IMG/VR virus record: IMGVR_UViG_3300021411_000005
Span: 11,909-75,908 of that record
Direction: 5' to 3' (one strand)
Length of the DNA: 64,000 nucleotides
Origin: a virus
Lineage: Duplodnaviria > Caudoviricetes
Below the pieces are notes generated by a model. That model was not told where the DNA came from. It saw nothing but the letters and a program-made list of their open reading frames with translations, and searched no databases. Below are positions 1-61,712 of this stretch, in pieces (the stretch's first letter is position 1; each line of letters begins with the position of its first letter). A program made the position numbers and the translations under genes.

Positions 1-998
1 ACGGCGGCAAAGGACAGGGTGTCCGCGATCTCCCCGAAGGACTGCTGGAACTTCTCCGGGTCGCCGACCACGGCGCAGAAGTCGCGCCGGGACCGGCCGT
101 CGATGATGACCGTCTTGACCGCTTCGGTCTTCCCGGCGCCGGGCACCCCGGTGACCAGGGTGTGAGGCAGTGCGCGCGGGTTCTCCGCGTCGTCGTCCCC
201 CACCACCCAGATGGCCATGTAGGAGCCGTCCGACCGGCCGCCGAAGACCAGCGCGCCGTCCGCGATGGAGGCGCCCGCCAGGGACGGCCCCGTCCAGTGC
301 AGCGTCCTGGCAGAACTCTCCTTCGGCTCGAACGCCAGGAGCACCTGGTCCGCGCGGCCGGGGACAGCCGTCACGGACACTTCGTTCGGGTCCATGCCGA
401 CCGCGCTGGCAATCCGGTCCTTGTCGTTCTGGACGTCCGAAGCCGTGCCCTCACCCGGCTTGAGCTGGACCTTTGCCTCCACCCGGGTAGGGCTCTCCTT
501 CACCTTCTTCGTACGCGCCCCGGCCAGTGCGGACACCCGCTGGAACAGCGGGTCGCGGTGTCCCTGGGCCTTGTCCTCTTCGTGGTGCGGGGACATCGAC
601 GCGTGCCGGATGTTCCAGGCCAGGGACAGGACAACGGACCCGTAGCCCCAGGTGACAGCCATCATGTGGTCCAGCGGACCGGTGGCCGACGCCAGCGCGA
701 ACCAGCCGGTCACCGCTCCGCAGAAGGTCGTGGCCAGCGCCCGGGTGTGCTCATGACGGCGCGACCAGGTCAGGTGTGTGTAGCCGGTCAGGACGACCGC
801 TCCGGCGCCGGTCAGTACCGTCATGACCGGGTCGTCGCTCAACTGCCAGTTGGCCAGCAGCGCTGCGGGCATGGCGGAGCCCGTGATGCCCCAGGGGACC
901 AGGTGCGGGAGCAGCCGGGAACCGGCCAGCTCCGCCACACCCAGACGCTTGGTACGAACGTTCGACCTGCCCTTTTCCTTGCTGCTCACCGTGGTCAC
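1..998 (-). CDS. traB: FtsK/SpoIIIE-family conjugative DNA translocase (TraB-like), 3' end truncated by window edge
   Basis: Not in ORF track; read manually from GTG at 998 overlapping the upstream TGA (GTGA). N-terminal hydrophobic helices (HLVPWGITG..., LSLAWNIRH) and Walker A HTLVTGVPGAGKT; last gene of an spd-tra order typical of Streptomyces plasmids. Confidence 0.8.
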   Translation of the reverse strand, partial: MTTVSSKEKGRSNVRTKRLGVAELAGSRLLPHLVPWGITGSAMPAALLANWQLSDDPVMTVLTGAGAVVLTGYTHLTWSRRHEHTRALATTFCGAVTGWFALASATGPLDHMMAVTWGYGSVVLSLAWNIRHASMSPHHEEDKAQGHRDPLFQRVSALAGARTKKVKESPTRVEAKVQLKPGEGTASDVQNDKDRIASAVGMDPNEVSVTAVPGRADQVLLAFEPKESSARTLHWTGPSLAGASIADGALVFGGRSDGSYMAIWVVGDDDAENPRALPHTLVTGVPGAGKTEAVKTVIIDGRSRRDFCAVVGDPEKFQQSFGEIADTLSFAA

Positions 999-1495
999 CC
1001 CCCTGTCGAAATCGTGAAGCGCTTCGGCTTCGCGGGCTTGTTCCGGCCGTCCATGATCTCCCCGAAGACCTGTTCGAACGTGGTCCAGGCGGCTACGAAA
1101 CCGGCCGCCGCGCTGCCGAAGTCCCCGGCGGAGCCGTTCAGCTTCTTCGTCACCCGGCGCATCTTGAACACCGCACCCCAGGACCGGTTCAGGTGGCCCA
1201 TCTCCTTCGCCCCGGCCTCCAGCTCCCCGGCTGCCAGTGCGGTGACCACAGCCAGGTAGTGGGCCAGCTTCCGGCCGGATTCACAGAACTGGTGGAGGTC
1301 GTGCTGGTCGGTCAGCTCGATGTCGTCCATCGCCTTGACCAGCGCGTCCAGCTTGCTGGAGCCGGACGACCGGCTGGAGCCTCCGCCGTCCGGGATGCCG
1401 TCCATCCGGAGTCCTCTCTCCCGGGCGTCCTTCTCATCCTTCGGACGGCTGCCCCGGGTGCTGTTCTCCCCCGGCTTGATCTTCGGTTCGGCCAT
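995..1495 (-). CDS. Plasmid transfer protein, TraA-like
   Basis: 166 aa, ATG preceded by AAGGAGGA; lies between the DUF2637-like gene and traB with overlapping stop/start. Confidence 0.55.
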   Translation of the reverse strand: MAEPKIKPGENSTRGSRPKDEKDARERGLRMDGIPDGGGSSRSSGSSKLDALVKAMDDIELTDQHDLHQFCESGRKLAHYLAVVTALAAGELEAGAKEMGHLNRSWGAVFKMRRVTKKLNGSAGDFGSAAAGFVAAWTTFEQVFGEIMDGRNKPAKPKRFTISTGG

Positions 1496-1509
1496 GGTCC
1501 TGTCCTCCT

Positions 1510-2370
1510 TCACGCTGACTGAGCCAGAGCGCTGCGCGCCCGGCGGATGCTGGTGTTGATCGTGTTCGGCTTGGTGTCCTCACCGAACTCCGTCCGGACC
1601 ATGTCCTTCAGGACGCTGTCCGGGGTGTCCTCACTGCGGGACAGGATGTCCTCCACGAAGGACTTCATCGAGCCCCCGGCAACGGTGCGGACGCGCGGCG
1701 CCGGGACAGTGTCCCGGGACACGGCCGGTACCGGCGGGACAGCGGCCGGGGACACCGCGGCGGGGACAGGGACAGCCGGAGGCAGGACGGGCGGGACGGG
1801 GACAGCGGGACCGGCGTCCTCTGTGACAGCCGGGCTGTCCTGCGGGACATCCTCCGTGGCGCTGTCCCGGGACAGGACACGGGACACGGCGGTGAGGACA
1901 GCCGGGGACGCGGCCAGGTGGAGCAGGTGGCCGAAGACCAGGGCGGGGACACAGGACACGGTGACCATCAGGGTCTGCCGGTAGGTCCAGCCGTCCCCGG
2001 GCTCCCAGCCGGAGCTGTAGAGATGCGCGACCGGCTGAGCGGCCATGGCCGCGGTGATGGACAGGACGGCGCCTACGACGGCCGTGCGCTTGCCCGGGGC
2101 GCCCTTGTCGCGCTTGGTGGCCACGACGGCCGCCACACCCGCGTACATCGTCAGGACGGCGGGCATGCCCCAGGCCAGTTCCTTGTTCCAACCGGCCAGG
2201 TGCGCCAGGTAATGCTCTCCCGGCGCGCACATCACCAGGACGATGACAGCGACGGCCGGGCGGACCCAGTCCTGGATCCAGGACACCCAGCGGACGCTGT
2301 CCTGGGGGATGTCCTTGTCCTTGCGGGTGTCCTTGGTGTCCCGGTTCTTACGGGACAGTCGGTTCTTCAT
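1510..2370 (-). CDS. DUF2637/Spd-like membrane protein with C-terminal helical (HTH-like) domain
   Basis: About four hydrophobic segments (APGEHYLAHLAGW...), a V/P/A-rich linker and a C-terminal helical domain (SMKSFVEDIL...NTINTSIRRAR); first gene of the transfer operon. Confidence 0.7.
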   Translation of the reverse strand: MKNRLSRKNRDTKDTRKDKDIPQDSVRWVSWIQDWVRPAVAVIVLVMCAPGEHYLAHLAGWNKELAWGMPAVLTMYAGVAAVVATKRDKGAPGKRTAVVGAVLSITAAMAAQPVAHLYSSGWEPGDGWTYRQTLMVTVSCVPALVFGHLLHLAASPAVLTAVSRVLSRDSATEDVPQDSPAVTEDAGPAVPVPPVLPPAVPVPAAVSPAAVPPVPAVSRDTVPAPRVRTVAGGSMKSFVEDILSRSEDTPDSVLKDMVRTEFGEDTKPNTINTSIRRARSALAQSA

Positions 2371-3474: not shown

Positions 3475-3614
3475 CGGGTGCCCTCCAGCCACTTGAGGTA
3501 CGGGTCCAGGAACCAGCCGGGTTCGCGGCCGGAGACCATCCACACCAGAAGCTCCACGACGGCTCCGGCCGATATCACCGGGATGAGCGTCAGCCTCTTC
3601 AAGAAACCGGTCAC
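3471..3614 (-). CDS. Small membrane peptide (47 aa)
   Basis: Read manually: MTGFLKRLTLIPVISAGAVVELLVWMVSG...; GTGA overlaps at both ends. Confidence 0.55.
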   Translation of the reverse strand: MTGFLKRLTLIPVISAGAVVELLVWMVSGREPGWFLDPYLKWLEGTR

Positions 3615-4270
3615 ATCGGTACCCCGATCCCTGCCGTGTTGCCCTTGTGGACGTGCCAGAACCAGGTCTTCCGGTCCAGGTGCTCGAACTTCGCCCCGGC
3701 GTCCAGGAGCCTGATCAGATAGCCTTCGTCCTCCCCGCGGTACCGGCCGTCGGCCAGGTGGACCCCCTCCGGGAAGCCGCCGATTTCCTTCACCGGGCCG
3801 GTCCGCACCAGGTGGGTCATCGGGATGAACGACCCCTGGCGCCGCAGGTGCGCCTCCTGGTCGGCTCCGAACCGGATCCCCCAGGGAAGTGTGAGCTGGC
3901 CCTGATAGGTGACCGCGGTCGGGTCCACCCCGCCCACCATCCTCGGCACCGGGTAGACCAGGGTCGTCCCCGGGTTCCTGGTCAGGATCCGCATGCAGGA
4001 GATCAGGTGCGTGTCCATCAGTTCGTCGTCGTCGTCCAGCCAGGCCACGACGTCGGTATGCACCCGGGCCAGCGCCCGGTTGCGCGCCTGCGCGGCGCCG
4101 GTCCGCAGGCTGTCACGCTCCACCACCACCTGGTCCGGCTTCCGGCGCTGGGCCCGTACGGACGCCAGCGCCCGCTCCAGCAGCTTCTCCCGGCCGGGAA
4201 TGGTCGGGATGACCACCGCCACAGTCAGCCGCTCCGGTGCCCGTCCGGCGCGCCTCCTGGCCTCACCCAT
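3611..4270 (-). CDS. Glycosyltransferase, GT-A fold (GT2-like)
   Basis: VAVVIPTIPGR...GAAQARNRALARVHTDVVAWLDDDD (DxD), GEDEGY, WFWHVH. Confidence 0.9.
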   Translation of the reverse strand: MGEARRRAGRAPERLTVAVVIPTIPGREKLLERALASVRAQRRKPDQVVVERDSLRTGAAQARNRALARVHTDVVAWLDDDDELMDTHLISCMRILTRNPGTTLVYPVPRMVGGVDPTAVTYQGQLTLPWGIRFGADQEAHLRRQGSFIPMTHLVRTGPVKEIGGFPEGVHLADGRYRGEDEGYLIRLLDAGAKFEHLDRKTWFWHVHKGNTAGIGVPM

Positions 4271-4670
4271 GGTTCTCGCCTCCTTCGTCCTTGACGACCG
4301 GCTCCATGCCGGTCACGGTCACCGTTGCAGACCCGTCCGGGTTCATACGGAAGTCCCCGATCCGGAGACCGACGGCATCCGGATGGGCCGTCCTCACCTC
4401 CCGGACCATGTCACTGATGAACTTCCCGATTGGGAACCGGGCGGGGTCTTCGTCGGCAGGGGCCCTGACCGAATAGTCCTTGATCTCCACGGGGATGCGC
4501 TTGGCGGTCTTCTGGACCATCACGCGGTGCCCGGTGAAATCGCTGTGCTCGGTAGCCCAGCGGTTCCGTTCGTCCGGGTCGCTGAAGGGCTGGGGCAGCG
4601 GGGATCCGGAGCAGTCCACGCACAGCGCCAGCCACCAGGTGACGTCCATGACGGCAGGGGTATCGGCCAT
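4263..4670 (-). CDS. Hypothetical protein with CxxC...H motif
   Basis: ORF track; LCVDC...WATEHSDFTGH. Confidence 0.6.
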   Translation of the reverse strand: MADTPAVMDVTWWLALCVDCSGSPLPQPFSDPDERNRWATEHSDFTGHRVMVQKTAKRIPVEIKDYSVRAPADEDPARFPIGKFISDMVREVRTAHPDAVGLRIGDFRMNPDGSATVTVTGMEPVVKDEGGENHG

Positions 4671-4672
4671 CG

Positions 4673-5569
4673 TCAGTCCTCCCAGGGCATGGCGCGGTTG
4701 ATCCCCTGGGCCAGGCGGATCTCCGGTACGTAGATCGAGTCCATCCGGCCGGTGTAGCCGACGCGGTACGCCACGCCGGTCGGCTTGCCGGTCAGCTCCT
4801 GGACCCGCGGGCTGTACCGCGCCTGCGCGGTGACCCGGGCAGCCAGGTCACGGAAGGACGTCGGCACGCCGTTGCAGAGGTTCACCGGTAGCGGCGTCCC
4901 GTCCCCGGCCACTGCCAGGGCGCCCTTCACCACGTCGTCCACGTGGATGAAGTCCCGGACGCAGGACCCGCACCAGATGTCGAACGGGTCGTCCCGGCGC
5001 AGCGCCCGCTCCACGAAGGCCGGGAAGGGATAGGTGGTGTCCTGGTCCTCTCCGTAGCCGGAGAACGGCCGTACGACCGTGACCGGAACTCCGGCCGCCC
5101 GCAGCTCCGCGGCCAGGATCTCCCCGGTCAGCTTGGACCAGCCGTACACCTGGTCGGGCTTACCCCGGAACGGCTGGCCGGGGCCGGTCAGGTACTCCTT
5201 CAGCCAGCCGTATTCGTCGTCCTCCTGGAACTCCACCGGGTAGACCGCGGAGCTGGAGAGGTAGAGCACCCGGCCGGGCTTCGCCACGGCGGCCCAGCGG
5301 AACATCTCCGCGTCCAGGCTGAAGTTCACCGCGGTCTCCAGCGGGGAGCCGTCGATGACCTCCCGGCCGCCGACCACGGCAGCCGCGTGGACCACCAGGT
5401 CGTAGCGGCCGGGCACCCGCGCTCCGATGTCCCGGCCGAAGTAGCGTCGGCAGTCCTGGGACGGCGCCCGCTTGATGTCCAGACCGGTCACGTCCCAGCC
5501 GCGCGCCTCCAGCTCCGCCTTGAAATGCCGTCCCAGGAACCCGCGGTCCCCGGTCACCAGTGCCTTCAC
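4673..5569 (-). CDS. NAD-dependent NDP-sugar epimerase/dehydratase (extended SDR)
   Basis: Start re-picked at GTG (VKALVTGDRGFLG) with GGAGG RBS; LSSSAVY, YGWSK (YxxxK), RPFSGYG, RDFIHVDD. Confidence 0.9.
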   Translation of the reverse strand: MKALVTGDRGFLGRHFKAELEARGWDVTGLDIKRAPSQDCRRYFGRDIGARVPGRYDLVVHAAAVVGGREVIDGSPLETAVNFSLDAEMFRWAAVAKPGRVLYLSSSAVYPVEFQEDDEYGWLKEYLTGPGQPFRGKPDQVYGWSKLTGEILAAELRAAGVPVTVVRPFSGYGEDQDTTYPFPAFVERALRRDDPFDIWCGSCVRDFIHVDDVVKGALAVAGDGTPLPVNLCNGVPTSFRDLAARVTAQARYSPRVQELTGKPTGVAYRVGYTGRMDSIYVPEIRLAQGINRAMPWED

Positions 5570-5676
5570 AGCCGCCTCCACAGATCCCGCTGGCTCTCCA
5601 GTGCCGACCGCCAGTCGGCAGCCGTCCGGCGGACGCCGGTTATCCACTCCCGGGCCCATGCCCGGACGGTCCTCAC
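5566..5676 (-). CDS. Small hypothetical protein (36 aa)
   Basis: GTGA overlaps at both ends fill the operon gap. Confidence 0.35.
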   Translation of the reverse strand: MRTVRAWAREWITGVRRTAADWRSALESQRDLWRRL

Positions 5677-5900
5677 CAGCCCTCCCGGAAGTGCGGGGCC
5701 CGCGGCGACAGGTACCGATGATCCCCCAGCGGCCGGGCTCTCTTCCAGTCCAGCCGGGGGTGGAGGGTCTTCGGCCCGTAGCAGTGTCGGCAGATCCACC
5801 GGCGCCAGCCCTGGGGCTCGAACCCGTGCGGTTCGACCTGGTTCTCCCCTGCTCCCGTACGGCGTGTCCTGGCCACCCTGGCGTTCTCCCAGCCGGTCAC
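5673..5900 (-). CDS. Small CxxC protein (75 aa)
   Basis: GTG overlapping the GT stop; WICRHCYG. Confidence 0.5.
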   Translation of the reverse strand: MTGWENARVARTRRTGAGENQVEPHGFEPQGWRRWICRHCYGPKTLHPRLDWKRARPLGDHRYLSPRAPHFREGW

Positions 5901-6496
5901 CAGCGGTCCCCGCTTCCGGACGTGTTGCCGTCGTGCCAGTTCCAGCACCAGGTCCGGCCGCTGTGATGGACGAACTTGGCCCCTTCGTTCAGGCACTTGA
6001 TCCACATACCCCAGTCCTCACACGGGTTGGAAGGGTCTCCGCGGTGCTGGAATCCGCCGACGTGCCGGAGGAGCTGCGTCTTTGCCAGGACCGTGATCGG
6101 GATGTAGTTCTGGGCACCCCGGATCAAGTCGGCGTCGAACGGCTGGCCCTCCCGCTCCGGCCAGGGATCCCAGCCGCGCGGTACGTCGAACCACGGATAG
6201 ACCACGTCCGCCGCGGTGCTCCGTGCAGTCTCCAGGAGACTCTGGACGTGCCGGGGGTACCAGACGTCGTCCGAATCCAGGAAGGCTGTCCACTCCGTCT
6301 GTACGGTCTCCAGGGCGCGGTTCCTGGTGACCGCCGCGCCGTCGTGCGTGCTGTCCACCGCAACGGCCACGGCGGCCACTGCGACGGTCTGGGACATGAC
6401 GCTGGACAGCGCCCGGGACAGCATCCCGTTCGCCAGGTTCGGCAGGTGTGCCGGGATGACCGCCGTGACCTCTCCGGCCCGGTACCGGCGCGCCAT
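5897..6496 (-). CDS. Glycosyltransferase, GT-A fold (GT2-like)
   Basis: VTAVIPAH...GAAVTRNRALETVQTEWTAFLDSDD, CEDWGMW, WCWNWH; paralogous to 3611-4270. Confidence 0.9.
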   Translation of the reverse strand: MARRYRAGEVTAVIPAHLPNLANGMLSRALSSVMSQTVAVAAVAVAVDSTHDGAAVTRNRALETVQTEWTAFLDSDDVWYPRHVQSLLETARSTAADVVYPWFDVPRGWDPWPEREGQPFDADLIRGAQNYIPITVLAKTQLLRHVGGFQHRGDPSNPCEDWGMWIKCLNEGAKFVHHSGRTWCWNWHDGNTSGSGDRW

Positions 6497-7149
6497 CAGT
6501 ACGCCGTCCACATCTGGAAGCGGTAGACGTCGGCCGACACCGGGGTGAAGATCCGGTGATCCGTGACCCGCCACCCGGCCTCATGAAGCATGCTGCTCAC
6601 GGCTTCGGCGTCCCAGCCCCAGTAGTGCTCCACGTTGCCCCCGCCGTCGGCGCTGGGCTGCTCCCCGTCCGGCGTGGTGAGCAGGAGGTAACGGGACTTC
6701 TCGCGCGCTGCCCGGAGATAGGCGTCCGGGTCGTCCAGGTGCTCCAGCGTTTCGGAGGAAACGAACAGGTCCACCGGGCGGTCCTCCAGGGACGCCATGG
6801 TCTGGTCCAGCGTCCCTTCCCAGAAGACGATCGACTCCGGCCAGGAGCCGTTCCGGTCAAGGGAGGAGACGATCAGTTCCTTCGGGATGTTGACGTCCCC
6901 CAGGACGACGCGGTGGATACGCGCACCCGGGGTCTCCACGATCCCGCGCGCCACGGCGCCGTCCCCGCAGGACAGATCCGCCACGGAGTTGACCAGGCCG
7001 TCGGTCAGGAGCCCGCGCGCGAAGTCCACCGTGGCCGCCACCCGCTCCACGTGGTCGGGCCACCGGTCGTGGTGGTAACCGCCGGGGTAGCGCTCTGAGT
7101 AGAAGGCCGCGGTGTCGGCGTGCACCGGACGGAGCCTGACGCGCATCAC
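6496..7149 (-). CDS. Class I SAM-dependent methyltransferase
   Basis: Motif I VADLSCGDG, SSETLEHLDDP, EHYWGWD; coupled to GT genes on both sides. Confidence 0.85.
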   Translation of the reverse strand: MMRVRLRPVHADTAAFYSERYPGGYHHDRWPDHVERVAATVDFARGLLTDGLVNSVADLSCGDGAVARGIVETPGARIHRVVLGDVNIPKELIVSSLDRNGSWPESIVFWEGTLDQTMASLEDRPVDLFVSSETLEHLDDPDAYLRAAREKSRYLLLTTPDGEQPSADGGGNVEHYWGWDAEAVSSMLHEAGWRVTDHRIFTPVSADVYRFQMWTAY

Positions 7150-7823
7150 CGGGCGTACTCCGCCCGGACCCGCTCCACGGCGCCGTCCAGCTCATCCCGC
7201 TCGAACTGGAGCCAGCGCGTCCGGTCGGCGCTGTCCACCGCGGGGGCGTTGGCCTCCCGGTAGCCGTCGTCCATCTCCGCCTTGCCCGCGGCCGGGTGGA
7301 TGTGCTCGATGGTGACGTCCGGCAGGTAGACCAGACCCCCCAGCCGCTCACCCAGCACCTTCCAGTAGTTGTCCAGGTACAGGTGGACCATCCCGGACGG
7401 GACCATCGAGCGGAGCGCGCGGACGATCCCCGCCTGCATGAAGACGGCTGTCGGCAGGTTGGCGCCCTGGAGCAGGTCGTCCCCGTAGACGATCCGGGGG
7501 TCCGGGCTGTCCAGTGCGTTCAGGACGGCCGTGTCCCAGCCGTAGCTGCGCGGGAGGTGGTCGTCCCCCATGAACCCCAGCGCGTCGTAGCTGTCCATGT
7601 ACCGGACGGCCACGCTGTTGAGCGTCGGGCCCAGCCGCTCCCGGTGGACCACCTCCACACGCATCAGGCCCAGCCGCAGATAGTCCATCGCCTTCGGGTC
7701 GTCGTCGTCCACCACGTACAGGAAGTCCGTCTGGCTGTCGGCCGCCGTGTACAGGCGTGCCTTCTCCAGCCGGGCTGCGTTCTCCGGCCGTCCCCGGGTG
7801 GGGACGATCACCAGCATCTTCAT
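7146..7823 (-). CDS. Glycosyltransferase, GT-A fold
   Basis: MLVIVPTRGRP, YVVDDDD, GFMGDDHLPR, HLYLDN, IEHIHP. Confidence 0.85.
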   Translation of the reverse strand: MKMLVIVPTRGRPENAARLEKARLYTAADSQTDFLYVVDDDDPKAMDYLRLGLMRVEVVHRERLGPTLNSVAVRYMDSYDALGFMGDDHLPRSYGWDTAVLNALDSPDPRIVYGDDLLQGANLPTAVFMQAGIVRALRSMVPSGMVHLYLDNYWKVLGERLGGLVYLPDVTIEHIHPAAGKAEMDDGYREANAPAVDSADRTRWLQFERDELDGAVERVRAEYAR

Positions 7824-8393: not shown

Positions 8394-9146
8394 TCAGGAG
8401 GTCCGGCCCTCCAGGAACCGCTGAACGGTGTAGAGCCGGAACAGGTCGGCCGGGGTGACGTCTCCCTCCCACCGGCCGTCCGTGAACAGGTGCCAGCCGC
8501 TGATGTCCGCGGCGCGGTCGGCAAGCTGGGAGCAGATCAGATGGCCGGAGGAGCGGATGTACCTCTTCAGGAGCGGCGTCGGGATGTGCGCCCGGTGCAG
8601 CGCCAGGGCTGCATAGTCGGCGACGCTGTACGGCGTCCCGCGCAGCTCCAGCGCGGCGGCTGCCACCGCCTGGCGCTTGTCCTCCGGGCAGCGCAGGTAC
8701 ACCGGCTCCAGGCCGTCGTAGCGGGACAGCGGGGAGAGCAGGGCACCGCCGGGCATGGCCTCTATGATTTCCGGCCCGGTGTTCCAGTCCTCCTCCGTCT
8801 GCGCACGGACCACGACGAAGGCGTGTTCGTAGTCCTCAAAGCCGTCTCCGTTCAGCCACTGGCCGAAGCGGATCAGGCGGCCGACCGTGCCAGGCATCCG
8901 GACGATGCCGATGTCCCCGGGCTGCGGGGCGTAGGGGCTGGCCATGGAGTTCTTCTTCCTTTCGGGTACGCACGGACCCGGGTGGTCCGGCGGGAGAACG
9001 CAGGACAGGCCGCTGCGCGGTCCGCGCCAGCGGTAGTTCGGCGTACGGCCGGAAGGATCCGCCGTCAGATCAGCGGGCAGGCACGGGCCGGAGTGGCCCG
9101 GGTCGCGCAAGACGCACACGATGTGCGAACCGTTCAGGTGCGGCAT
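8394..9146 (-). CDS. Permuted papain-like (NlpC/P60-related) amidase/peptidase; alternative start at 8945
   Basis: PGDIGIV...YEHAFVV...GTPYS...ICSQL (His before Cys); N-terminal extension with two C-x-L-x3/4-H-x-GPC units; both starts have an RBS. Confidence 0.7.
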   Translation of the reverse strand: MPHLNGSHIVCVLRDPGHSGPCLPADLTADPSGRTPNYRWRGPRSGLSCVLPPDHPGPCVPERKKNSMASPYAPQPGDIGIVRMPGTVGRLIRFGQWLNGDGFEDYEHAFVVVRAQTEEDWNTGPEIIEAMPGGALLSPLSRYDGLEPVYLRCPEDKRQAVAAAALELRGTPYSVADYAALALHRAHIPTPLLKRYIRSSGHLICSQLADRAADISGWHLFTDGRWEGDVTPADLFRLYTVQRFLEGRTS

Positions 9147-9989: not shown

Positions 9990-10039
9990 GGTGAAACAAT
10001 ACCCGAGAGATGTCCGGTTACGCCAGATCGGGAGACGTT

Positions 10040-10687
10040 ATGACACAAGAGCCAAGGGTCCTGGGACTGGACCTCTCCATCACCAGCACCGGGGTGTGCC
10101 GACCTGACGGGACCACGTTCCTGATCGTCCCGAAGAAGGTGACCGGGGACGCACGGATCAACTTCATCAGGGACGCCGTCCGCGGAGAGCTGACCGGCGT
10201 GGACGTGGCGGTCGTGGAGGACTTCCCCGCCATGCTCCAGGCGGCTGCGGCCAAGGCAATCGGGATCGTCCAGGGCGCCGTACGGTCGGCGCTGATGGAC
10301 GCAGGCGTCCCCTACGCCGTGGTGCCCCCCAGCACCCTGAAGAAGTACGCCACGGACAACGGGTCGTGCTCCAAGACGGACATGGCGCTGGCCGCGTACA
10401 AGCGCGGCGCGGTCGAGTTCGAGAAGGATCCGAACGGTGACCGGTGTGACGCCTGGTGGCTGTTCGTGGCCGGGCTGGACCGGTACGCAGCACACCCGCC
10501 GCTGGGCGGCCTGCCGAAAGGCCAGCGCGCCGCGCTGGACAAGGTGGACTGGCCGGAGCCGCGGCCGCGGCCGGATGACGGGATGACGGAGCAGGAGGTC
10601 CGGGAGGACGCCGGGTTCGGTCTTCCGGTGTGCCCGGCCTGCGAAGGCGACCCCTTCGCCGACCACCTGGAGGGCTGCGGAGCCTGA
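10040..10687 (+). CDS. ruvC: RuvC-like Holliday junction resolvase
   Basis: VLGLDLSITSTG, VAVVED, VPPSTLKKYATDNG, DRCDAWWL. Confidence 0.85.
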   Translation: MTQEPRVLGLDLSITSTGVCRPDGTTFLIVPKKVTGDARINFIRDAVRGELTGVDVAVVEDFPAMLQAAAAKAIGIVQGAVRSALMDAGVPYAVVPPSTLKKYATDNGSCSKTDMALAAYKRGAVEFEKDPNGDRCDAWWLFVAGLDRYAAHPPLGGLPKGQRAALDKVDWPEPRPRPDDGMTEQEVREDAGFGLPVCPACEGDPFADHLEGCGA

Positions 10688-29120: not shown

Positions 29121-29972
29121 ATGCCGGATGAAATGGTCACCACCTACGAACACGTCTACACCCCGACGGACCGGCGGCTGGGCCGCCACGTCCGGCACGA
29201 CAGCCGGTCCCTGCGTCACGCTGTCGGCGTGCTCCCCCGCAGCGCCATCAAGGCGGTGAGCTGGACCCGGCGCATTCCGATCCTGGACCAGGGCCAGATC
29301 GGGGACTGCGTCCCGAACGCGCTGACCGGCATCCTGGGCACCGACAGCGAGCAGCGCACCGGCCTGGCCCAGGTCACCGTGAAGGCCGATCCGGGCGGTG
29401 TCTTCCAGGGCGGGCCGTACCCGCTGAACGAGTCGTTTGCCGTGCGGCTCTACAGCCTGATCACCGCACTGGACAGCTATCCCGGCCAGTACCCGCCGGA
29501 CGACACCGGCAGCGACGCGCTGGGGGCCATGGCTGCGGCCCAGGCGCTCGGGCTGGCCGGTGAATACCAGCACGCGTTCAGCTACACCGCGGCGCAGTCG
29601 GCCGTCCAGAAGGGCCCGCTGATGTGGGGCACGGAGTGGCTGGAGTCGATGTTCGACACGGACCGCAACGGCTTCCTGGTGGTGGACCGGAAGAGCGGCG
29701 TGGCGGGCGGCCACGAACTGGTGCTGTCCGGGTACGACCCGGACACGGACGTGTGGCAGGCGGACAACTCCTGGGGCACATCGTGGGGTGCCGACGGCCG
29801 GGCTTCCGTCACCGGGGTGAACCTGCGCTGGCTGCTTACCCAGGAAGGGGACATCACGCTGCCGACCTGGATCACGTCCCCGGTCACCCCGCCCGGCCCG
29901 GCGCCGTTCACCGACGCGGAGTTCTGGGAGTACGCACAGCAGTGGGCAGCGGGCAAGGGGTTCACGTCGTGA
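29121..29972 (+). CDS. Papain-like (C1) cysteine peptidase
   Basis: LDQGQIGDCVPNA, GGHELVLSGYD, DNSWGTSWGADG. Confidence 0.85.
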   Translation: MPDEMVTTYEHVYTPTDRRLGRHVRHDSRSLRHAVGVLPRSAIKAVSWTRRIPILDQGQIGDCVPNALTGILGTDSEQRTGLAQVTVKADPGGVFQGGPYPLNESFAVRLYSLITALDSYPGQYPPDDTGSDALGAMAAAQALGLAGEYQHAFSYTAAQSAVQKGPLMWGTEWLESMFDTDRNGFLVVDRKSGVAGGHELVLSGYDPDTDVWQADNSWGTSWGADGRASVTGVNLRWLLTQEGDITLPTWITSPVTPPGPAPFTDAEFWEYAQQWAAGKGFTS

Positions 29973-30375: not shown

Positions 30376-31398
30376 ATGAAGCGCGTACTTCTCACCGGAG
30401 CGGCCGGGTTCGTCGGCAGCCACGTCCTCCGGCACATCCTGATGGAGACGGACTGGGAGGTCGTCTGCCCGGTGACCTTCCGGCACAAGGGCATCCCGCC
30501 GCGGATCCACAGTGCCCTGGACTCCGTGACCGGAGCAGCCGCGCGCGTCTCCACGGTGATCCTGGACCTGACCGCCCCAGTGGACCCGATCACCACGGCG
30601 CAGCTCGGGCGCATAGATGTGATCATGAACGTGGCCAGCAACAGCCATGTGGACCGCTCCCTGGAGCGGCCGGTCCCGTTCGTGCTCGACAACGTGGCCA
30701 TCATGCTGAACACGCTGGAGCTGGCCCGGGTGCTCCATCCGTTCATGTTCCTCCAGATGAGCACCGACGAAGTGTACGGACCGGCGCCCGCCGGTTACGA
30801 CTCCGTGGAGTGGGATCCCATCGTCCCGTCCAACCCGTACTCCGCCAGCAAGGCCGCGCAGGAGGCGGTGGCCATCAGCTACTGGCGCAGCTACGGCGTA
30901 CCGCTGGTGATCACCAACACCATGAACGTCATCGGGGAGATGCAGGACCCGGAGAAGTTCGTGCCGATGATCATCCGCAAGGTGCTGGCCGGAGACCCGG
31001 TGCCGGTGCACTGCGCCCCGGACGGGACCGCGGGCAGCCGGTTCTACCTCCATGCCCGCAATCTGGCCGACGCCTGGGTGATGCTGGCCGGGAGCCAGTC
31101 CGATCCGGTGGAGCGGTACGCCGACGGGGCGACCAGGCCCGCGCGGTACAGCGTGGTCGGTGAGCTGGAGCTGGGCAACGACGAACTGGTGACCATGATC
31201 GCCGACATCCTGGGGCGCCCGGCCTTTATCGACCGGCAGACCTTCCATGCCACCAGGCCGGGGCACGACCTGCGCTATGCCCTGGACGGAAGCAAGATCT
31301 GGGAGCGCTTCGGATGGTCCCCGCCGGTCCCGCTGCGGGATTCGCTCAAGCGCACCGTGGAGTGGACGCTGGCGCATCCGGAGTGGCTGGAGCTGTGA
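30376..31398 (+). CDS. rmlB: dTDP-glucose 4,6-dehydratase-like (RmlB family)
   Basis: LLTGAAGFVGSH, SHVDRS, STDEVYG, PSNPYSASKAA, RPGHDLRYALD. Confidence 0.88.
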   Translation: MKRVLLTGAAGFVGSHVLRHILMETDWEVVCPVTFRHKGIPPRIHSALDSVTGAAARVSTVILDLTAPVDPITTAQLGRIDVIMNVASNSHVDRSLERPVPFVLDNVAIMLNTLELARVLHPFMFLQMSTDEVYGPAPAGYDSVEWDPIVPSNPYSASKAAQEAVAISYWRSYGVPLVITNTMNVIGEMQDPEKFVPMIIRKVLAGDPVPVHCAPDGTAGSRFYLHARNLADAWVMLAGSQSDPVERYADGATRPARYSVVGELELGNDELVTMIADILGRPAFIDRQTFHATRPGHDLRYALDGSKIWERFGWSPPVPLRDSLKRTVEWTLAHPEWLEL

Positions 31399-34252: not shown

Positions 34253-34693
34253 GTGCCTGCCTGGACCGTACTGCTGTTCCTCGGGCTGGCCACGTACCGG
34301 CTGACCCGGCTGGTGGTGAAGGACGATTTCCCGCCCGCGCTCTGGTTCCGCGACCGGATCGCGGGCGGCTGGCGTCCGCTCAGCCGGAAAGAGCTGGAGA
34401 CAGCCGGGCTGCCCGCACCGGGCGACTGGTCGGCGGTCATTGCCGGACTGGGACAGACCGAATACCGGGACGGGGCGTACCGGCGGTACGTCACCCGCGC
34501 ATCCTGGTCCCCCGCGTGGCTGGCCGACCTGGTGAGCTGCCCCTGGTGCGCGTCGGGCTGGATCTCGCTGGCGCTCACCGCGTACACCGTGGCGGTTCCG
34601 TGGCCGGGGTCGTTCACCTGGTGGCAGGCCGCAATCGTCTGGCCCGCCGTCTGGGGCGCCGGGTCTCTGCTGGCCAGTAAGGAGTGGGCATGA
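34253..34693 (+). CDS. DUF1360-like membrane protein
   Basis: LATYRLTRLVVKD...LVSCPWCASGW. Confidence 0.75.
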   Translation: MPAWTVLLFLGLATYRLTRLVVKDDFPPALWFRDRIAGGWRPLSRKELETAGLPAPGDWSAVIAGLGQTEYRDGAYRRYVTRASWSPAWLADLVSCPWCASGWISLALTAYTVAVPWPGSFTWWQAAIVWPAVWGAGSLLASKEWA

Positions 34694-35301
34694 CCGAATG
34701 GAAGCTGTTCGACGGAGACGTCCCGTACGTCTCCACCGCGGAGTTCCACGCCGACCGGGAGCGGGCTCCGCACCTGGAGCAGGAGTGGCACCAGCCGCGC
34801 CTGTACCGGGCGGTGAACCTGGTCCGGGACTCGATCACATCCATGCAGGCAGAGGACCCGCTGCACCCGATCACGGTCTCCGACCTGGGATGCGGAGACG
34901 GCGGCCTGCTCCAGGCGCTGGCCTATCCGCTGTCCTGGGGTTACGACTTCGCCCCGGCCAACGCTGCCGGGTGGACGGAGCGCCGGGTCACCGCCGTGTC
35001 GGCCGACGTCTTCGGAGCCGACCAGGACCGGATCCGGCTGGGGGACATCGTGGTGATGACCGAAGTCCTGGAGCACGTGGCCGACCCGCACGGCGTGCTC
35101 CGCTGGCTGAAGGGCTCCGGTGTCCCGGTGATCGTCTGTTCCAGCCCGCTGAACGAGAACCAGCACAACCACAGCCCGGAGCACGCCTGGGCCTGGGACA
35201 CCCAGGGCTACGCGGAGATGCTCGCTGCGGCCGGGTGGGTCATCGCCAACCACGAACAGGCCGGACTGTTCCAGGTGGTCAGAGCGGTGAACATCACGTG
35301 A
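34690..35301 (+). CDS. Class I SAM-dependent methyltransferase (paralog of 6496-7149)
   Basis: VSDLGCGDG, TEVLEHVADP, EHAWAWD. Confidence 0.85.
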   Translation: MTEWKLFDGDVPYVSTAEFHADRERAPHLEQEWHQPRLYRAVNLVRDSITSMQAEDPLHPITVSDLGCGDGGLLQALAYPLSWGYDFAPANAAGWTERRVTAVSADVFGADQDRIRLGDIVVMTEVLEHVADPHGVLRWLKGSGVPVIVCSSPLNENQHNHSPEHAWAWDTQGYAEMLAAAGWVIANHEQAGLFQVVRAVNIT

Positions 35302-59280: not shown

Positions 59281-59294
59281 GAGGAACGGTCAGC

Positions 59295-60623: not shown

Positions 60624-61712
60624 ATGAAGATCACCGTGTTCCCGGCCGACGTCTACGGCTGCGGTCACTTCCGGCTCATCTGGGCCTGCGAGCTGCTCCG
60701 GGCCCAGGGCGCGGACATCGACGTCGTACCGCCGGGAGAGCGCCAACTGGAACTCCGGGTGGACCGGGAACGGGTGGACGATGTGATCGGCCTGGAGACG
60801 GACGTAGTGGTCTTCCAGCGGGTCACGCACAGCTTCATGGCGCAGGCGGTCCCGATCCTGCGGGCCAAGGGCGTGACGGTCGTGGTGGACATTGACGACG
60901 ACCTGATGTCGGTCCATCCGTCGAATCCGGCCTACGCGGCCATGCACCCGCGCAACGAGTGGCGCAGCGAACCGGGCGCACGCGGTCCCCGGCGCCACAA
61001 CTGGAAGCATCTCAGCACGGCGTGCCGGGAAGCCTCGCTGGTGACCGTGTCCACGCCGGGTCTGCTGGACGTCTACGCCCGGCACGGCCGGGGACGCGTG
61101 ATCTACAACCACCTGCCGGACATCTACTACGGCGTGGAGCACACCGACAGCGACATCATCGGCTGGCCCGCGGCGCTGGCCTCCCACCCGGAGGACCCCT
61201 CCGCCACGGGGGGCGCCGTCGCGCGGCTGTGCAGCGACCAGGCGGCCTTCCGGGTGGTCGGTGACCCGACGGGCTGCGGGCTGGCCTTCGGGCTCCCCCA
61301 GGACCCTCCAGGGATCCAGGGTGTGGACGTCTACCGGTGGCCGCTGGAGGTGGCGAAGCTGGGGATCGGAATTGCCCCGCTGGCCGACAGCCGGTTCAAC
61401 GCCTGCAAGAGCTGGCTGAAGCCGCTGGAGATGTCGGCGCTGGGTGTCCCCTGGGTGGCCTCCCCGCGGCCGGAGTACGCAGCGCTGCATGCGCGCGGCG
61501 CCGGGATCCTGGCGGGCAACCCCCGGCGCTGGTACCGGGAGCTGGACCGGCTGCGGAAGTCGGCCGGACTGCGGGAGGAGCTGGCCGGGCGCGGCCGGGA
61601 GACGGCCGATGGCCTCCGGCTGCGGGGGAACGAGTGGCGGTGGATGGACGCCTGGATGTACGCCTACGCGCTACAGAACGGCAGGGACCGGACCGGAGCG
61701 TCGGCGCAGTAG
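60624..61712 (+). CDS. Glycosyltransferase, GT-B fold (GT4-like)
   Basis: GCGHFRL, VVFQR, VVDIDDD, VTVSTP, GIAPLADSRFNACKSWLKPLEMSALGVPWVASP. Confidence 0.88.
   Translation: MKITVFPADVYGCGHFRLIWACELLRAQGADIDVVPPGERQLELRVDRERVDDVIGLETDVVVFQRVTHSFMAQAVPILRAKGVTVVVDIDDDLMSVHPSNPAYAAMHPRNEWRSEPGARGPRRHNWKHLSTACREASLVTVSTPGLLDVYARHGRGRVIYNHLPDIYYGVEHTDSDIIGWPAALASHPEDPSATGGAVARLCSDQAAFRVVGDPTGCGLAFGLPQDPPGIQGVDVYRWPLEVAKLGIGIAPLADSRFNACKSWLKPLEMSALGVPWVASPRPEYAALHARGAGILAGNPRRWYRELDRLRKSAGLREELAGRGRETADGLRLRGNEWRWMDAWMYAYALQNGRDRTGASAQ

What the first reader, a model, noticed from the sequence alone, without database searches (positions are those of the whole stretch)
3611..7823. Phage glycan-building operon: three GT-A transferases, a methyltransferase and an NDP-sugar epimerase/dehydratase
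Seen: five translationally coupled sugar enzymes interspersed with small ORFs, immediately upstream of the transfer operon. Known: mycobacteriophage Che8 uses phage glycosyltransferases to glycosylate capsid and tail tube. Inference: this element makes its own modified (methylated/deoxy) sugar and builds an oligosaccharide on virions, on host surface polymers (exclusion) or on the transfer apparatus. No hydroxymethyl-base enzyme is visible, which argues against T4-style DNA glucosylation.
Basis: partly seen in the sequence, partly recalled or inferred. Interest (0 to 1): 0.8.

Follow-up and report, generated by a model that had tools for sequence, protein, structure and literature searches.

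The report
Phage sugar-coating gene set, target unproven
A soil phage of Streptomyces-like bacteria carries enzymes that most likely build a short chain of methylated, deoxygenated sugars inside the infected cell, probably to coat its own particle as some mycobacterial phages do, but what the sugars are attached to has not been measured.

Summary
On the minus strand of 3611-7823 lie three GT-A glycosyltransferases, a SAM methyltransferase and an extended SDR. They are tightly packed or overlapping and interleaved with two small CxxC ORFs. The system is larger than reported: an RmlB-like NDP-hexose 4,6-dehydratase (30376-31398), a second methyltransferase (34684-35301) and a GT-B transferase (60624-61712) sit in the late operon.

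The record is a 75.9-kb Streptomyces-type siphophage/phage-plasmid. GT3 (7146-7823) belongs to a large, Pfam-less, mostly viral GT-A family. Elsewhere it is fused to methyltransferase and GT2 domains, and it is strictly co-inherited with the SDR. Sister phages lacking the pair carry a different GT plus SDR at the same locus, yet keep GT1/GT2, GT4 and usually RmlB.

All sugar proteins are soluble. No flippase, hydroxymethylase or TET/JBP was found.

Best reading (about 50%): cytoplasmic assembly of a methylated 6-deoxyhexose glycan on virion proteins, analogous to Che8/Corndog but not orthologous. Rivals are host wall-polymer modification (about 20%) and DNA modification (under 5%). No acceptor was identified. 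This scan has noted similar cassettes on other phage DNA. Verdict: new variant of a known kind, moderate interest.

The parts
7146..7823 (-). GT3: 225-aa GT-A-fold glycosyltransferase of a large, mostly viral family with no Pfam model. Conserved motifs are DDDDP, GDDH and EHxHP.
   Evidence: phrog_14945 E 6.8e-59 and no Pfam/NCBIfam match. AlphaFold pLDDT 96.3; Foldseek finds GT-A enzymes (AvpGT, SpsA, TarP, RmlT) at E 1e-8 to 1e-6, TM about 0.55-0.66. At least 1800 homologues in the protein database and at least 573 IMG/VR stretches. Invariant residues are listed.
6496..7149 (-). MT1: 217-aa class I SAM methyltransferase. Its GTG start overlaps the GT3 stop (GTGA).
   Evidence: PF13489 Methyltransf_23 E 6.7e-9; junction read. 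GT3::Methyltransf_23 fusion proteins exist elsewhere. 45% identical to the methyltransferase of plasmid pS1D4-14.2, in the same gene order.
5897..6496 (-). GT2: 199-aa GT-A (GT2-family) glycosyltransferase with a DSD motif. Its ATG shares one base with the MT1 stop.
   Evidence: PF00535 E 1.2e-9; phrog_14775 E 2.5e-30. 37% identical paralogue of GT1. Orthologues at 56-60% are kept in sister phages that lack GT3.
5673..5900 (-). sm75: small 75-aa ORF with a WICRHC motif. Its GTG overlaps the GT2 stop. Function unknown; probably not a sugar enzyme.
   Evidence: Frame read and GC3 0.87. No family match for the longer ORF 5673-6005.
4673..5569 (-). EPI: 298-aa extended SDR (GxxGxxG, SSS, YGWSK). 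Nearest solved relatives are GDP-mannose 3,5-epimerase and GDP-fucose synthase, but the catalytic Cys is replaced by an invariant Ala. Probably a 4-ketoreductase or 4-epimerase that makes the donor sugar for GT3.
   Evidence: PF01370 E 4.7e-30. Family profile against PDB: 2c5e E 2.5e-36, 7ll6 E 1.1e-31. Invariant columns. Adjacent to GT3 in 71/80 viral and 51/64 genomic loci. Orthologues occur in exactly the 8 GT3-positive records of 22 related records.
4263..4670 (-). sm135: small 135-aa ORF with an N-terminal W-x3-C-x2-C motif. Not conserved in relatives.
   Evidence: phrog_27770 E 1e-7 over residues 11-53. No homologue in 144 related loci.
3611..4270 (-). GT1: 219-aa GT-A (GT2-family) glycosyltransferase with a DDDD motif. 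It overlaps the sm135 stop by 8 nt and has a strong RBS.
   Evidence: PF00535 E 4.2e-10; phrog_14775 E 6.6e-22. Junction read. A 69% orthologue sits at the syntenic locus of the GT3-negative sister phage G003.
9256..9283 (-). Promoter-like site (TTGACC-16-TATAGT) at the head of the leftward unit that contains the cassette. No terminator-like site lies between it and GT1 on this strand.
   Evidence: the only promoter-like match in 12 kb, against 0.5 expected. This is a consensus match only.
30376..31398 (+). RmlB-like NDP-hexose 4,6-dehydratase (340 aa), lying 568 nt upstream of the large terminase gene. Proposed first step toward the 6-deoxyhexose donor.
   Evidence: TIGR01181 E 8.6e-60, 202 bits, below the 365-bit equivalog cut-off. 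PDB 1bxk E 6.7e-42 over the full length, with STDEVYG and PYSASKA aligned. Present in 11 of 12 complete relatives. Adjacent to the GT cluster in relative G020.
34684..35301 (+). MT2: 205-aa class I SAM methyltransferase, a distant paralogue of MT1, lying between the terminase and portal genes.
   Evidence: PF13489 E 2.5e-8. 24% identical to MT1, E 2e-10. Its homologues lie within 10 kb of GT3 in 37 viral and 17 genomic loci, often in tandem with an MT1-type gene.
60624..61712 (+). GT4: 362-aa GT-B-fold glycosyltransferase at the end of the late operon, after the endolysin gene.
   Evidence: phrog_7162 E 1.4e-25. Atlas feature and structure neighbours are viral Glyco_trans_1_4 / Glycos_transf_1 clusters, TM 0.8-0.93. 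Adjacent to GT3 cassettes in several other phages. A 59-71% orthologue occurs in all five complete sister phages that lack GT3.

Best explanation
The cassette is the core of a soluble, cytoplasmic glycan-assembly system encoded by the phage and spread over three loci.

Proposed pathway (inferred):
1. Host NDP-glucose (probably dTDP-glucose) is converted by the RmlB-like dehydratase to an NDP-4-keto-6-deoxyhexose.
2. The cassette SDR reduces it, perhaps after epimerisation, to a specific 6-deoxyhexose donor.
3. GT3, which is always inherited together with that SDR, transfers this sugar.
4. GT1, GT2 and the GT-B enzyme GT4 add further residues from host nucleotide-sugar pools.
5. MT1 and MT2 O-methylate the glycan.

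The most likely acceptor is one or more virion proteins, modified before or during assembly. This parallels the O-glycans that mycobacteriophages Che8, Corndog and Myrna put on capsid and tail-tube subunits.

The GT3+SDR pair is a swappable sub-module. Sister phages carry a different GT plus SDR at the same locus, which would give different glycan types on otherwise similar particles.

Shown here: gene content, folds, catalytic motifs, fusions, co-inheritance, the module swap, and the absence of membrane or DNA-modification partners. Inferred: the nucleotide carrier, the exact sugar, the order of transfers and the acceptor.
For: Evidence that the parts work together:
- The junctions are overlapping or near-abutting.
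- Natural fusions exist: GT3::Methyltransf_23, GT3::Methyltransf_24, GT3::GT2 and GT3::MT::GT2. phiAsp2 Pas34 is one example.
- The SDR is adjacent to GT3 in 71/80 viral and 51/64 genomic loci.
- Among 22 records with a related tail tube, SDR orthologues occur in exactly the 8 GT3-positive ones.

Evidence for the module swap: the GT3-negative sisters G003 and G002 keep GT1/GT2 orthologues. At the syntenic locus G003 has a TOD1/MUCI70-like GT plus a different SDR, and G002 has a Pfam-less 257-aa ORF, a different SDR and a methyltransferase. GT4 and PF00535 GTs are in all five complete GT3-negative sisters. RmlB is in 11 of 12 complete relatives.

Evidence pointing to a virion acceptor (all indirect):
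- RmlB, MT2 and GT4 lie inside the rightward packaging-head-tail-lysis operon.
- In relative G020 the GT cluster abuts the terminase gene.
- In phiAsp2 a GT3 homologue sits directly after the tail genes, between homologues of Che8 gp108 (E 5e-12) and of Che8 gp110 (32% identity, E 1.7e-24). Che8 gp110 is reported as essential for capsid glycosylation (PMC12363180).
- Che8 gp108 is itself a GT2::O-methyltransferase fusion.
- Corndog-type phages carry an O-methyltransferase plus three GTs that modify capsid and tail tube (PMC11600133).
- GT3 homologues occur in Streptomyces BE/BK phages of about 130 kb.
- No integrase, resolvase or ParB was found in this record.
- All sugar proteins lack membrane segments.
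Against: No glycan has been measured on anything.
- None of GT1-GT4 is an orthologue of Che8 gp108-110. The best BLAST E-value is 1e-3, which is fold-level similarity only.
- No acceptor signature was found. The T-rich, P-rich C-terminus of the tail tube is conserved whether or not GT3 is present, and also in distant Microbacterium, Gordonia and cyanophage tail tubes. Che8's capsid and tail tube both end in ...GS, unlike here.
- The five-enzyme cassette sits in the leftward arm with recombination genes, next to the TraB-like module, not among structural genes.
- Relatives persist in cultured Streptomyces as separate replicons of about 90-99 kb, for example the linear plasmid pS1D4-14.2 (MCP 57% identical). 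A carrier-state function is therefore possible.
- One complete GT3/SDR-positive relative (G006) lacks the RmlB-like gene, so the dehydratase-SDR link is not obligatory.
- A census of genes neighbouring GT3 in 52 diverse viral loci was mixed: head, portal, adaptor and endolysin genes, but also exonuclease and TraB-like genes.
Confidence: 0.5

Rival explanations
1. Host envelope conversion. The soluble GTs decorate a host wall glycopolymer precursor (teichoic or teichulosonic acid, or another polymer) on the cytoplasmic face. Host exporters then carry it out, as with the prophage-encoded TarP of Staphylococcus aureus. This would change the receptor to exclude related phages, or to keep progeny from re-adsorbing, in mycelium that carries the element as a plasmid-prophage.
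For: Relatives of this phage are maintained as separate replicons in cultured Streptomyces: pS1D4-14.2, and contigs of about 92-96 kb with terminal repeats in isolate assemblies. The cassette lies next to a TraB/Spd-like module. TarP, TarS and RmlT are among the structural neighbours of GT3. Swapping of GT+SDR pairs between sister phages resembles serotype variation of surface polymers.
Against: GT1-GT3 are bare catalytic domains of 199-225 aa, without the extra acceptor-binding or oligomerisation domains of TarP/TarS. The cassette has no promoter or terminator of its own like a moron, and is embedded in a polycistronic lytic-type arm. Three system genes are in the late structural operon. GT3 homologues are present in large Streptomyces BE/BK phages. 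This record has no integrase, ParB or evident lysogeny module.
Confidence: 0.2
2. DNA hypermodification. The transferases glycosylate phage DNA bases to evade restriction, as in T4 or TET-dependent systems.
For: The cassette sits among replication and recombination genes (RuvC-like, exonuclease, helicase). GT3 homologues in BK phages lie among nucleotide-metabolism genes.
Against: No ThyA-like hydroxymethylase, ThyX or TET/JBP dioxygenase was found in the near-complete record. To my knowledge, four transferases, two O-methyltransferases and a 6-deoxyhexose pathway have no precedent in DNA modification. The 'DNA methyltransferase' label on the GT3 fusion Pas34 is a RefSeq relabelling of an O-methyltransferase domain (PF13578).
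Confidence: 0.04
3. Another cytoplasmic acceptor. The glycan might be put on a small molecule (for example, inactivating an anti-phage Streptomyces metabolite), on a host protein, or on the TraB/Spd transfer proteins.
For: The best Foldseek hit of GT3 is AvpGT, a promiscuous nucleoside-analogue glucosyltransferase (PMC11959488, listed). The cassette is adjacent to the transfer-like module.
Against: The AvpGT match is fold-level only (TM 0.56, 19% identity). A multi-GT, multi-MT assembly line with swappable sugar-specific modules fits an oligosaccharide better than a single detoxifying transfer. GT3 cassettes occur in many phages without TraB-like genes, in loci with GC from 39% to 73%.
Confidence: 0.08

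Closest known systems
Virion O-glycosylation of mycobacteriophages (Che8 gp108-110; Corndog O-methyltransferase plus three GTs; Myrna). Source: Freeman et al. 2023, Cell Host Microbe 31:1216, known to me from its abstract and from citing papers PMC12363180 and PMC11600133; the full text was not held.
   Same: A phage-encoded tandem set of small soluble GT-A transferases together with a sugar O-methyltransferase. A GT is directly coupled to a methyltransferase: Che8 gp108 is a GT2::Methyltransf_24/TylF fusion, and here GT3 overlaps MT1. The host is an actinobacterium. No membrane components are involved.
   Different: There is no orthology: the best BLAST E-value against Che8 gp108-110 is 1e-3. 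The methyltransferase family differs (Methyltransf_23, not 24). This phage adds its own donor-sugar enzymes (RmlB-like dehydratase plus SDR) and a GT-B enzyme, and spreads the genes over three loci. The acceptor is unknown, and the capsid and tail-tube C-termini do not resemble Che8's ...GS ends.
Actinoplanes phage phiAsp2 genes pas33-pas35
   Same: Pas34 carries an N-terminal GT3-family domain (38% identical to GT3, E 1e-35) fused to an O-methyltransferase and flanked by two GT-A genes.
   Different: In phiAsp2 the cluster follows the tail genes directly, and its flanking GTs are homologues of Che8 gp108 and gp110, which this window lacks. phiAsp2 has no SDR or dehydratase in the cluster. Its function is untested.
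GT + GT3-type GT + cytidylyltransferase-like trio of Streptomyces BE/BK-cluster phages (e.g. Jay2Jay gp39-37, Blueeyedbeauty gp76-78) and Arthrobacter phages (Mimi gp176-178)
   Same: GT3 homologues (45-50% identical) are coupled to a second GT and to an enzyme that makes an activated donor.
   Different: The donor-forming partner there is a nucleotidyltransferase (PF01467), not an SDR. No methyltransferase is present. These are cultured phages of about 130-190 kb. None of these trios has been characterised, as far as the held literature shows.
dTDP-6-deoxyhexose pathways of bacteria (RmlB followed by a 4-ketoreductase or epimerase-reductase), and GDP-fucose synthase / GDP-mannose 3,5-epimerase
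   Same: The RmlB-like protein keeps the TDE and YxxxK motifs over a full-length alignment to E. coli RmlB. The cassette SDR falls in the GME/GFS clade by profile search.
   Different: The RmlB-like protein scores below NCBI's equivalog cut-off (202 against 365 bits). The SDR has an invariant Ala where GME and GFS have the catalytic Cys. No RmlA or RmlC was seen, so the nucleotide carrier and the product sugar are unknown.
Prophage-encoded wall teichoic acid glycosyltransferase TarP (S. aureus)
   Same: A phage-borne soluble GT-A enzyme. It is a structural neighbour of GT3 (Foldseek E 4e-7, TM 0.59).
   Different: TarP is a single 327-aa enzyme with a trimerisation/acceptor domain, expressed from a prophage. 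Here there are four GTs, two methyltransferases and sugar-tailoring enzymes, all minimal domains, and some lie in the late operon.

Membership tests
Che8/Corndog-type actinophage virion glycosylation system | Phage-encoded soluble glycosyltransferases with an associated sugar O-methyltransferase | tested here: met
   Three GT-A, one GT-B and two SAM methyltransferases, none with a membrane segment. The methyltransferases are Methyltransf_23, not the Methyltransf_24/TylF type of Che8 gp108.
Che8/Corndog-type actinophage virion glycosylation system | Homologue of the essential transferase (Che8 gp110 / Corndog gp38 structural cluster) | tested here: not met
   BLASTP of GT1-GT4 against Che8 gp108-110 gave no hit to gp110 at E < 1 and only E 1e-3 to gp108/gp109. 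Profile or structure comparison with gp110 was not run.
Che8/Corndog-type actinophage virion glycosylation system | O-linked glycans on the C-termini of capsid and tail-tube subunits | not testable with these tools
   This needs glycoprotein staining or mass spectrometry. Sequence gives no tag: the tail-tube TTxAPP C-terminus is conserved regardless of GT content.
Glycosyltransferase family 2 / GT-A fold (GT1, GT2, GT3) | Rossmann-like GT-A domain with an acidic DxD-type metal/nucleotide motif | tested here: met
   GT1 and GT2 exceed the PF00535 gathering score (40.2 and 38.8 against 23.3 bits) and carry DDDD and DSD motifs. GT3 has no Pfam match, but its confident model (pLDDT 96) matches GT-A structures, and its family has invariant DxDD, GDDH and EHxH motifs.
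Extended SDR NDP-sugar epimerase/reductase (cassette SDR) | GxxGxxG cofactor motif and a Ser...YxxxK catalytic triad | tested here: met
   TGDRGFLG, SSS and YGWSK are present and invariant in 27 orthologues. PF01370 E 4.7e-30.
NDP-hexose 4,6-dehydratase (cassette SDR) | Thr-Asp-Glu catalytic motif | tested here: not met
   The SDR has SSSAVY at this position. The dehydratase role instead falls to the separate gene 30376-31398, which has STDEVYG.
GDP-mannose 3,5-epimerase / GDP-fucose synthase | Catalytic Cys acting as general base for epimerisation | tested here: not met
   The profile alignment to 2c5e places the invariant Ala108 opposite the Cys of the SSACIYP motif. The best matches are nevertheless these enzymes (E 2.5e-36 and 1.1e-31).
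dTDP-glucose 4,6-dehydratase RmlB (gene 30376-31398) | Score above the TIGR01181 equivalog cut-off, with TDE and YxxxK motifs | tested here: inconclusive
   202.5 bits against a cut-off of 365.1. The motifs are conserved and the alignment to 1bxk is full length (E 6.7e-42). The nucleotide specificity is unknown.
T4-like or TET-dependent DNA glycosylation | A hydroxymethylating enzyme (dCMP/dUMP hydroxymethylase or TET/JBP) that creates the acceptor base | tested here: not met
   PF00303, PF02511 and PF12851 gave no match at E <= 1 in the whole 75.9-kb record.
Gtr-type seroconversion (GtrA/GtrB/Gtr*) | A membrane flippase and a bactoprenol-linked, membrane-anchored transferase | tested here: not met
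   No sugar protein has a convincing hydrophobic segment. The highest value, 1.85 in GT2, lies in the Ala/Val-rich core strand before the DSD motif.

The most novel reading that the evidence does not exclude
Phages of this Streptomyces phage-plasmid lineage wear a polymorphic glycan coat. A conserved scaffold of transferases (GT1, GT2, GT4, with the RmlB-like dehydratase) is combined with interchangeable 'sugar-specific' pairs of one SDR and one transferase at a fixed locus: GT3 + GME/GFS-like SDR in some phages, TOD1/MUCI70-like GT + another SDR in others. Near-identical particles would then display different methylated deoxy-sugar epitopes. This would be an O-antigen-like serotype system on virions (or, alternatively, on the carrier's surface), driven by selection from hosts or predators rather than by animal immunity.
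Probability: 0.3. Interest if true: 0.65.

Novelty: new variant of a known kind. Interest (0 to 1): 0.42.

Why it matters
Virion glycosylation has been demonstrated only in a few mycobacteriophages, where it blunts antibody recognition. Why soil phages would need it is an open question.

This lineage offers four things:
- An uncharacterised GT-A family with thousands of mostly viral members and no Pfam model.
- A phage-borne route to a tailored 6-deoxyhexose.
- A natural swap of GT+SDR pairs between sister phages, which predicts glycan types.
- Cultured handles for testing (Streptomyces sp. S1D4-14 with pS1D4-14.2; BE/BK, Zukovirus and Arthrobacter phages).

Identifying the acceptor would show whether sugar coats are a general feature of actinophage particles or a tool for remodelling the host surface. 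It could also supply new enzymes for glyco-engineering of phages.

Tried and rejected
1. Tail-tube C-terminus (…NITTTAPPAASCSPVTLT) as a glycosylation tag: rejected. The motif is present in GT3-positive and GT3-negative relatives alike. T219/A222/P223/P224 are invariant even in Microbacterium, Gordonia and Pseudanabaena phage tail tubes.
2. Capsid C-terminus: short, G/S/T-containing and variable, with no pattern linked to GT3.
3. Orthology to Che8 gp108-110: none by BLAST.
4. tblastn of MT1 against 50,697 phage records gave no match. For the SDR the best identity was about 29%. The GT3-MT-SDR cassette is therefore absent from deposited phage genomes in that collection, although records near the window's own may be masked.
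5. PHROG census of 145 genes neighbouring GT3 in 52 diverse viral loci: a mixed picture (TraB-like 11, extra GT 7, major head 5+2, endolysins, portal, adaptors, exonucleases). It does not identify the acceptor.
6. The Foldseek top hit AvpGT (nucleoside glucosyltransferase) was treated as fold-level similarity only.
7. Freeman et al. 2023 could not be read; I rely on its abstract from memory and on citing papers.
Contexts were obtained with the search for related loci and the genome search instead.
9. Expression: no RNA holder was listed for this DNA.
10. Lysogeny genes: no tyrosine or serine recombinase and no ParB in the record. This does not exclude a plasmid-prophage state.
11. Not run: the second structure-prediction slot, the large representative search, and a profile or structure comparison of GT1-GT4 with Che8 gp110.

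Full report
**What the element is**

The window is bases 11909-75908 of a 75,908-bp IMG/VR virus record, with a CheckV completeness of 92%. Its first and last 140 bases are the same apart from one mismatch, so the record is probably a complete, terminally redundant or circularly assembled genome. GC content is about 69%.

The rightward arm encodes:
- large terminase (31966-33375);
- portal (36522-38303);
- a MuF/protease-like fusion protein (38260-41193);
- a 595-aa major capsid protein (42027-43814);
- major tail protein (45061-45765);
- head-tail adaptor (48597-49412) and tape measure protein (50975-54376);
- endolysin (59223-60260).

The leftward arm encodes helicase, exonuclease and a TraB/FtsK-like protein; a RuvC-like resolvase gene (10010-10687) lies among them on the plus strand.

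The capsid is only 31-35% identical to capsids of deposited phages. It is 57% identical, over 97% of its length, to the capsid gene of pS1D4-14.2, a 98.8-kb linear 'plasmid' of a cultured Streptomyces isolate. Relatives also appear as separate contigs of 92-96 kb in Streptomyces isolate assemblies, and as proviruses. The host is therefore Streptomyces or a close relative, and the lineage can persist in carriers. This record itself shows no integrase, resolvase or ParB.

**Checking the observation**

On the minus strand, in order of transcription, the genes are:

| Gene | Coordinates | Size | Evidence |
|---|---|---|---|
| GT3 | 7146-7823 | 225 aa | no Pfam; phrog_14945 |
| MT1 | 6496-7149 | 217 aa | Methyltransf_23 |
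| GT2 | 5897-6496 | 199 aa | PF00535 |
| sm75 | 5673-5900 | 75 aa | CxxC motif |
| SDR | 4673-5569 | 298 aa | PF01370 |
| sm135 | 4263-4670 | 135 aa | CxxC motif |
| GT1 | 3611-4270 | 219 aa | PF00535 |

Two ORFs listed by the first start codon are too long. GT2 most likely starts at the ATG that shares a base with the MT1 stop. The SDR most likely starts at a GTG seven bases after a GGAGG, which is also where the plasmid orthologue begins.

The junctions are GTGA, TGATG, GTGA, 103 nt, 2 nt and an 8-nt overlap. The frames have the GC3 of 0.84-0.95 expected of real genes in this genome. A promoter-like site at 9283-9256 heads the unit, and no terminator-like site interrupts it on this strand.

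**More sugar genes outside the reported region**

- *A dehydratase.* A Pfam scan of other genes found a 340-aa protein at 30376-31398, just upstream of the terminase gene. It aligns end to end with dTDP-glucose 4,6-dehydratases (TIGR01181 E 8.6e-60; PDB 1bxk E 6.7e-42) and keeps the STDEVYG and YxxxK catalytic motifs.
- *A second methyltransferase.* MT2 lies at 34684-35301, between terminase and portal. It is a distant paralogue of MT1, 24% identical with E 2e-10.
- *A fourth transferase.* GT4 lies at 60624-61712, after the endolysin gene. Its closest feature and structure neighbours are viral GT-B (Glyco_trans_1_4 / Glycos_transf_1) clusters.

An earlier first-reader note on the overlapping window of this genome listed the dehydratase and both methyltransferases (e1-5796848). 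I reached them independently and tested them.

**What GT3 is**

GT3 has no Pfam or NCBIfam match. The protein database holds at least 1800 homologues, almost all unnamed and many on phage-sized contigs. IMG/VR holds at least 573 encoding stretches, in loci with GC from 39% to 73%.

A model built from 32 homologues is confident (pLDDT 96.3). It matches GT-A transferases at fold level only: AvpGT, SpsA, TarP, RmlT and WrtF, with TM 0.55-0.66. Invariant acidic and histidine motifs (DxDD, GDDH, EHxH) fit a metal-dependent GT-A enzyme.

Among deposited phages, homologues (38-50% identical) occur in Streptomyces BE/BK-cluster phages and in Arthrobacter phages. There they lie next to another GT and a cytidylyltransferase-like gene. 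A homologue also occurs in Actinoplanes phage phiAsp2.

**Evidence that the parts form one system**

1. *Fusions.* Longer proteins carry the GT3 domain fused to Methyltransf_23, to Methyltransf_24, to GT2, or to methyltransferase plus GT2. The last arrangement has the same order as the genes GT3-MT1-GT2 in this window. phiAsp2 Pas34 is a GT3::O-methyltransferase fusion.
2. *Neighbourhood.* An orthologue of the SDR lies beside GT3 in 71 of 80 viral loci and 51 of 64 genomic loci, often immediately downstream. MT1/MT2-type, GT1/GT2-type and GT4-type genes are frequent partners.
3. *Co-inheritance.* Among 22 IMG/VR records whose tail tube is 54-86% identical to this one, GT3 is present in 8. Strong SDR orthologues (E < 1e-100) occur in exactly those 8.
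4. *Module swap.* The complete sister phages without GT3 keep GT1/GT2 orthologues at the syntenic locus, between the RuvC-side genes and the TraB-like module. In place of GT3-MT1-SDR, G003 carries a TOD1/MUCI70-like GT plus a different SDR (about 25% identical); G002 carries a Pfam-less 257-aa ORF, a different SDR and a Methyltransf_23 gene. All five complete GT3-negative sisters have a GT4 orthologue (59-71%) and PF00535 GTs. Eleven of 12 complete relatives have the RmlB-like gene.

The lineage therefore has a conserved sugar scaffold and a variable GT+SDR pair.

**The likely chemistry**

The profile of 27 SDR orthologues is closest to GDP-mannose 3,5-epimerase (E 2.5e-36) and GDP-fucose synthase (E 1.1e-31). 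The Cys that those enzymes use as the epimerisation base is an invariant Ala here. The SDR also lacks the TDE motif of dehydratases. It is therefore best read as a 4-ketoreductase or 4-epimerase.

With the RmlB-like dehydratase upstream in the pathway, the simplest scheme has four steps:
1. Host NDP-glucose is dehydrated to an NDP-4-keto-6-deoxyhexose.
2. The SDR converts this to an NDP-6-deoxyhexose.
3. GT3 transfers that sugar.
4. MT1 and MT2 methylate the glycan.

This is inference. The nucleotide carrier and the sugar are unknown, and one GT3/SDR-positive relative lacks the dehydratase.

**The acceptor**

All sugar proteins are soluble, and there is no flippase or lipid-linked transferase. 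The glycan must therefore be built in the cytoplasm on its final acceptor.

DNA is unlikely. No ThyA-like, ThyX or TET/JBP enzyme exists in the record.

I favour virion proteins for these reasons:
- Three system genes lie in the late packaging-head-lysis operon.
- In relative G020 the GT cluster abuts the terminase gene.
- In phiAsp2 the GT3 homologue follows the tail genes directly, flanked by homologues of Che8 gp108 and of gp110. Che8 gp110 is reported as essential for capsid glycosylation (PMC12363180).
- Che8 gp108 is itself a GT::O-methyltransferase fusion.
- Corndog-type phages use an O-methyltransferase plus three GTs on capsid and tail tube (PMC11600133).
- GT3 homologues occur in large Streptomyces BE/BK phages.

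All of this evidence is indirect. None of the GTs here is orthologous to the characterised ones. I also found no acceptor tag. The attractive T/P-rich tail-tube C-terminus turned out to be a family-wide structural feature.

Modification of a host wall polymer, as by TarP, remains a serious rival. The lineage lives in carriers, and the cassette adjoins the TraB-like module.

**Novelty and score**

Phage-encoded virion glycosylation is known, and from memory of its abstract the defining paper already mentions putative GTs in Streptomyces phages. This scan has also repeatedly noted phage glycan cassettes on other DNA, including first-reader notes on relatives of this phage.

What is new here:
- the uncharacterised GT3 family and its obligate SDR partner;
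- the phage's own 6-deoxyhexose branch;
- the three-locus layout;
- the swap of GT+SDR pairs between sister phages.

I rate it a new variant of a known kind, of moderate interest (0.42). My confidence is about 0.85 that it builds a methylated deoxy-sugar glycan in the cytoplasm, and about 0.5 that virion proteins are the acceptor.

Noticed in passing
window 46595-47947 (+): A 450-aa protein between the tail-tube and head-tail adaptor genes carries about five to seven tandem 20-aa repeats rich in A/S/T/P/D (…AAQDASTALAALPDTPS…). Relatives have the same kind of repeat array at very different lengths (435-813 aa). It may be a fibre or decoration protein and is a candidate glycan acceptor. No family match was found.
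   Followed up: partly
window 3-998 (-), continuing to G000:10900-12906; window 995-1513 and 1510-2370 (-): A 668-aa TraB/FtsK-like protein (phrog_24831, Walker-type VTGVPGAGKTE) and two upstream genes, one membrane-like, lie directly downstream of the cassette. Homologues neighbour GT3 cassettes in 15 viral and 5 genomic loci. Earlier notes of this scan read this as a Streptomyces-type conjugation module in a phage-plasmid.
   Followed up: partly
G000 1-140 and 75769-75908 (the latter is window 63861-64000): The first and last 140 bases of the record are identical except for one T/C mismatch. IMG/VR classes the record as 'linear', but it is probably a complete, terminally redundant or circularly assembled genome.
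   Followed up: yes
window 29121-29972 (+): A 283-aa protein with a weak papain-family cysteine protease match (PF00112, E 2.5e-6) lies just upstream of the RmlB-like dehydratase. Its role is unknown.
   Followed up: no
window 5673-5900 and 4263-4670 (-): The two small ORFs inside the cassette share a W-x3-C-x2-C motif (WICRHC and WLALCVDC); the second matches phrog_27770. They are not conserved in related cassettes, so they look like fast-evolving small zinc-ribbon-like phage genes rather than sugar enzymes.
   Followed up: partly
L201:13020-13958 (relative G003, syntenic locus): A sister phage lacking GT3 carries a 312-aa protein with a glycoside hydrolase family 16 match (E 8e-5) next to its alternative GT+SDR pair. 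This hints that some lineage members also cleave a glycan.
   Followed up: no
window 8394-9146 (-): The first gene of the leftward unit (250 aa; phrog_1128, labelled 'enoyl-CoA hydratase-like'; no Pfam match) is conserved just upstream of the sugar genes in the closest relatives (66-74% identical in L007, L008 and G002). Its function is unknown.
   Followed up: no
L005 (phiAsp2 pas34) and PHROG phrog_2675: The label 'DNA methyltransferase' on Pas34 and on phrog_2675 appears to be an annotation drift. The protein is a GT3-type GT-A domain fused to a Methyltransf_24 O-methyltransferase domain, and the original depositor note says 'putative O-methyltransferase'.
   Followed up: yes
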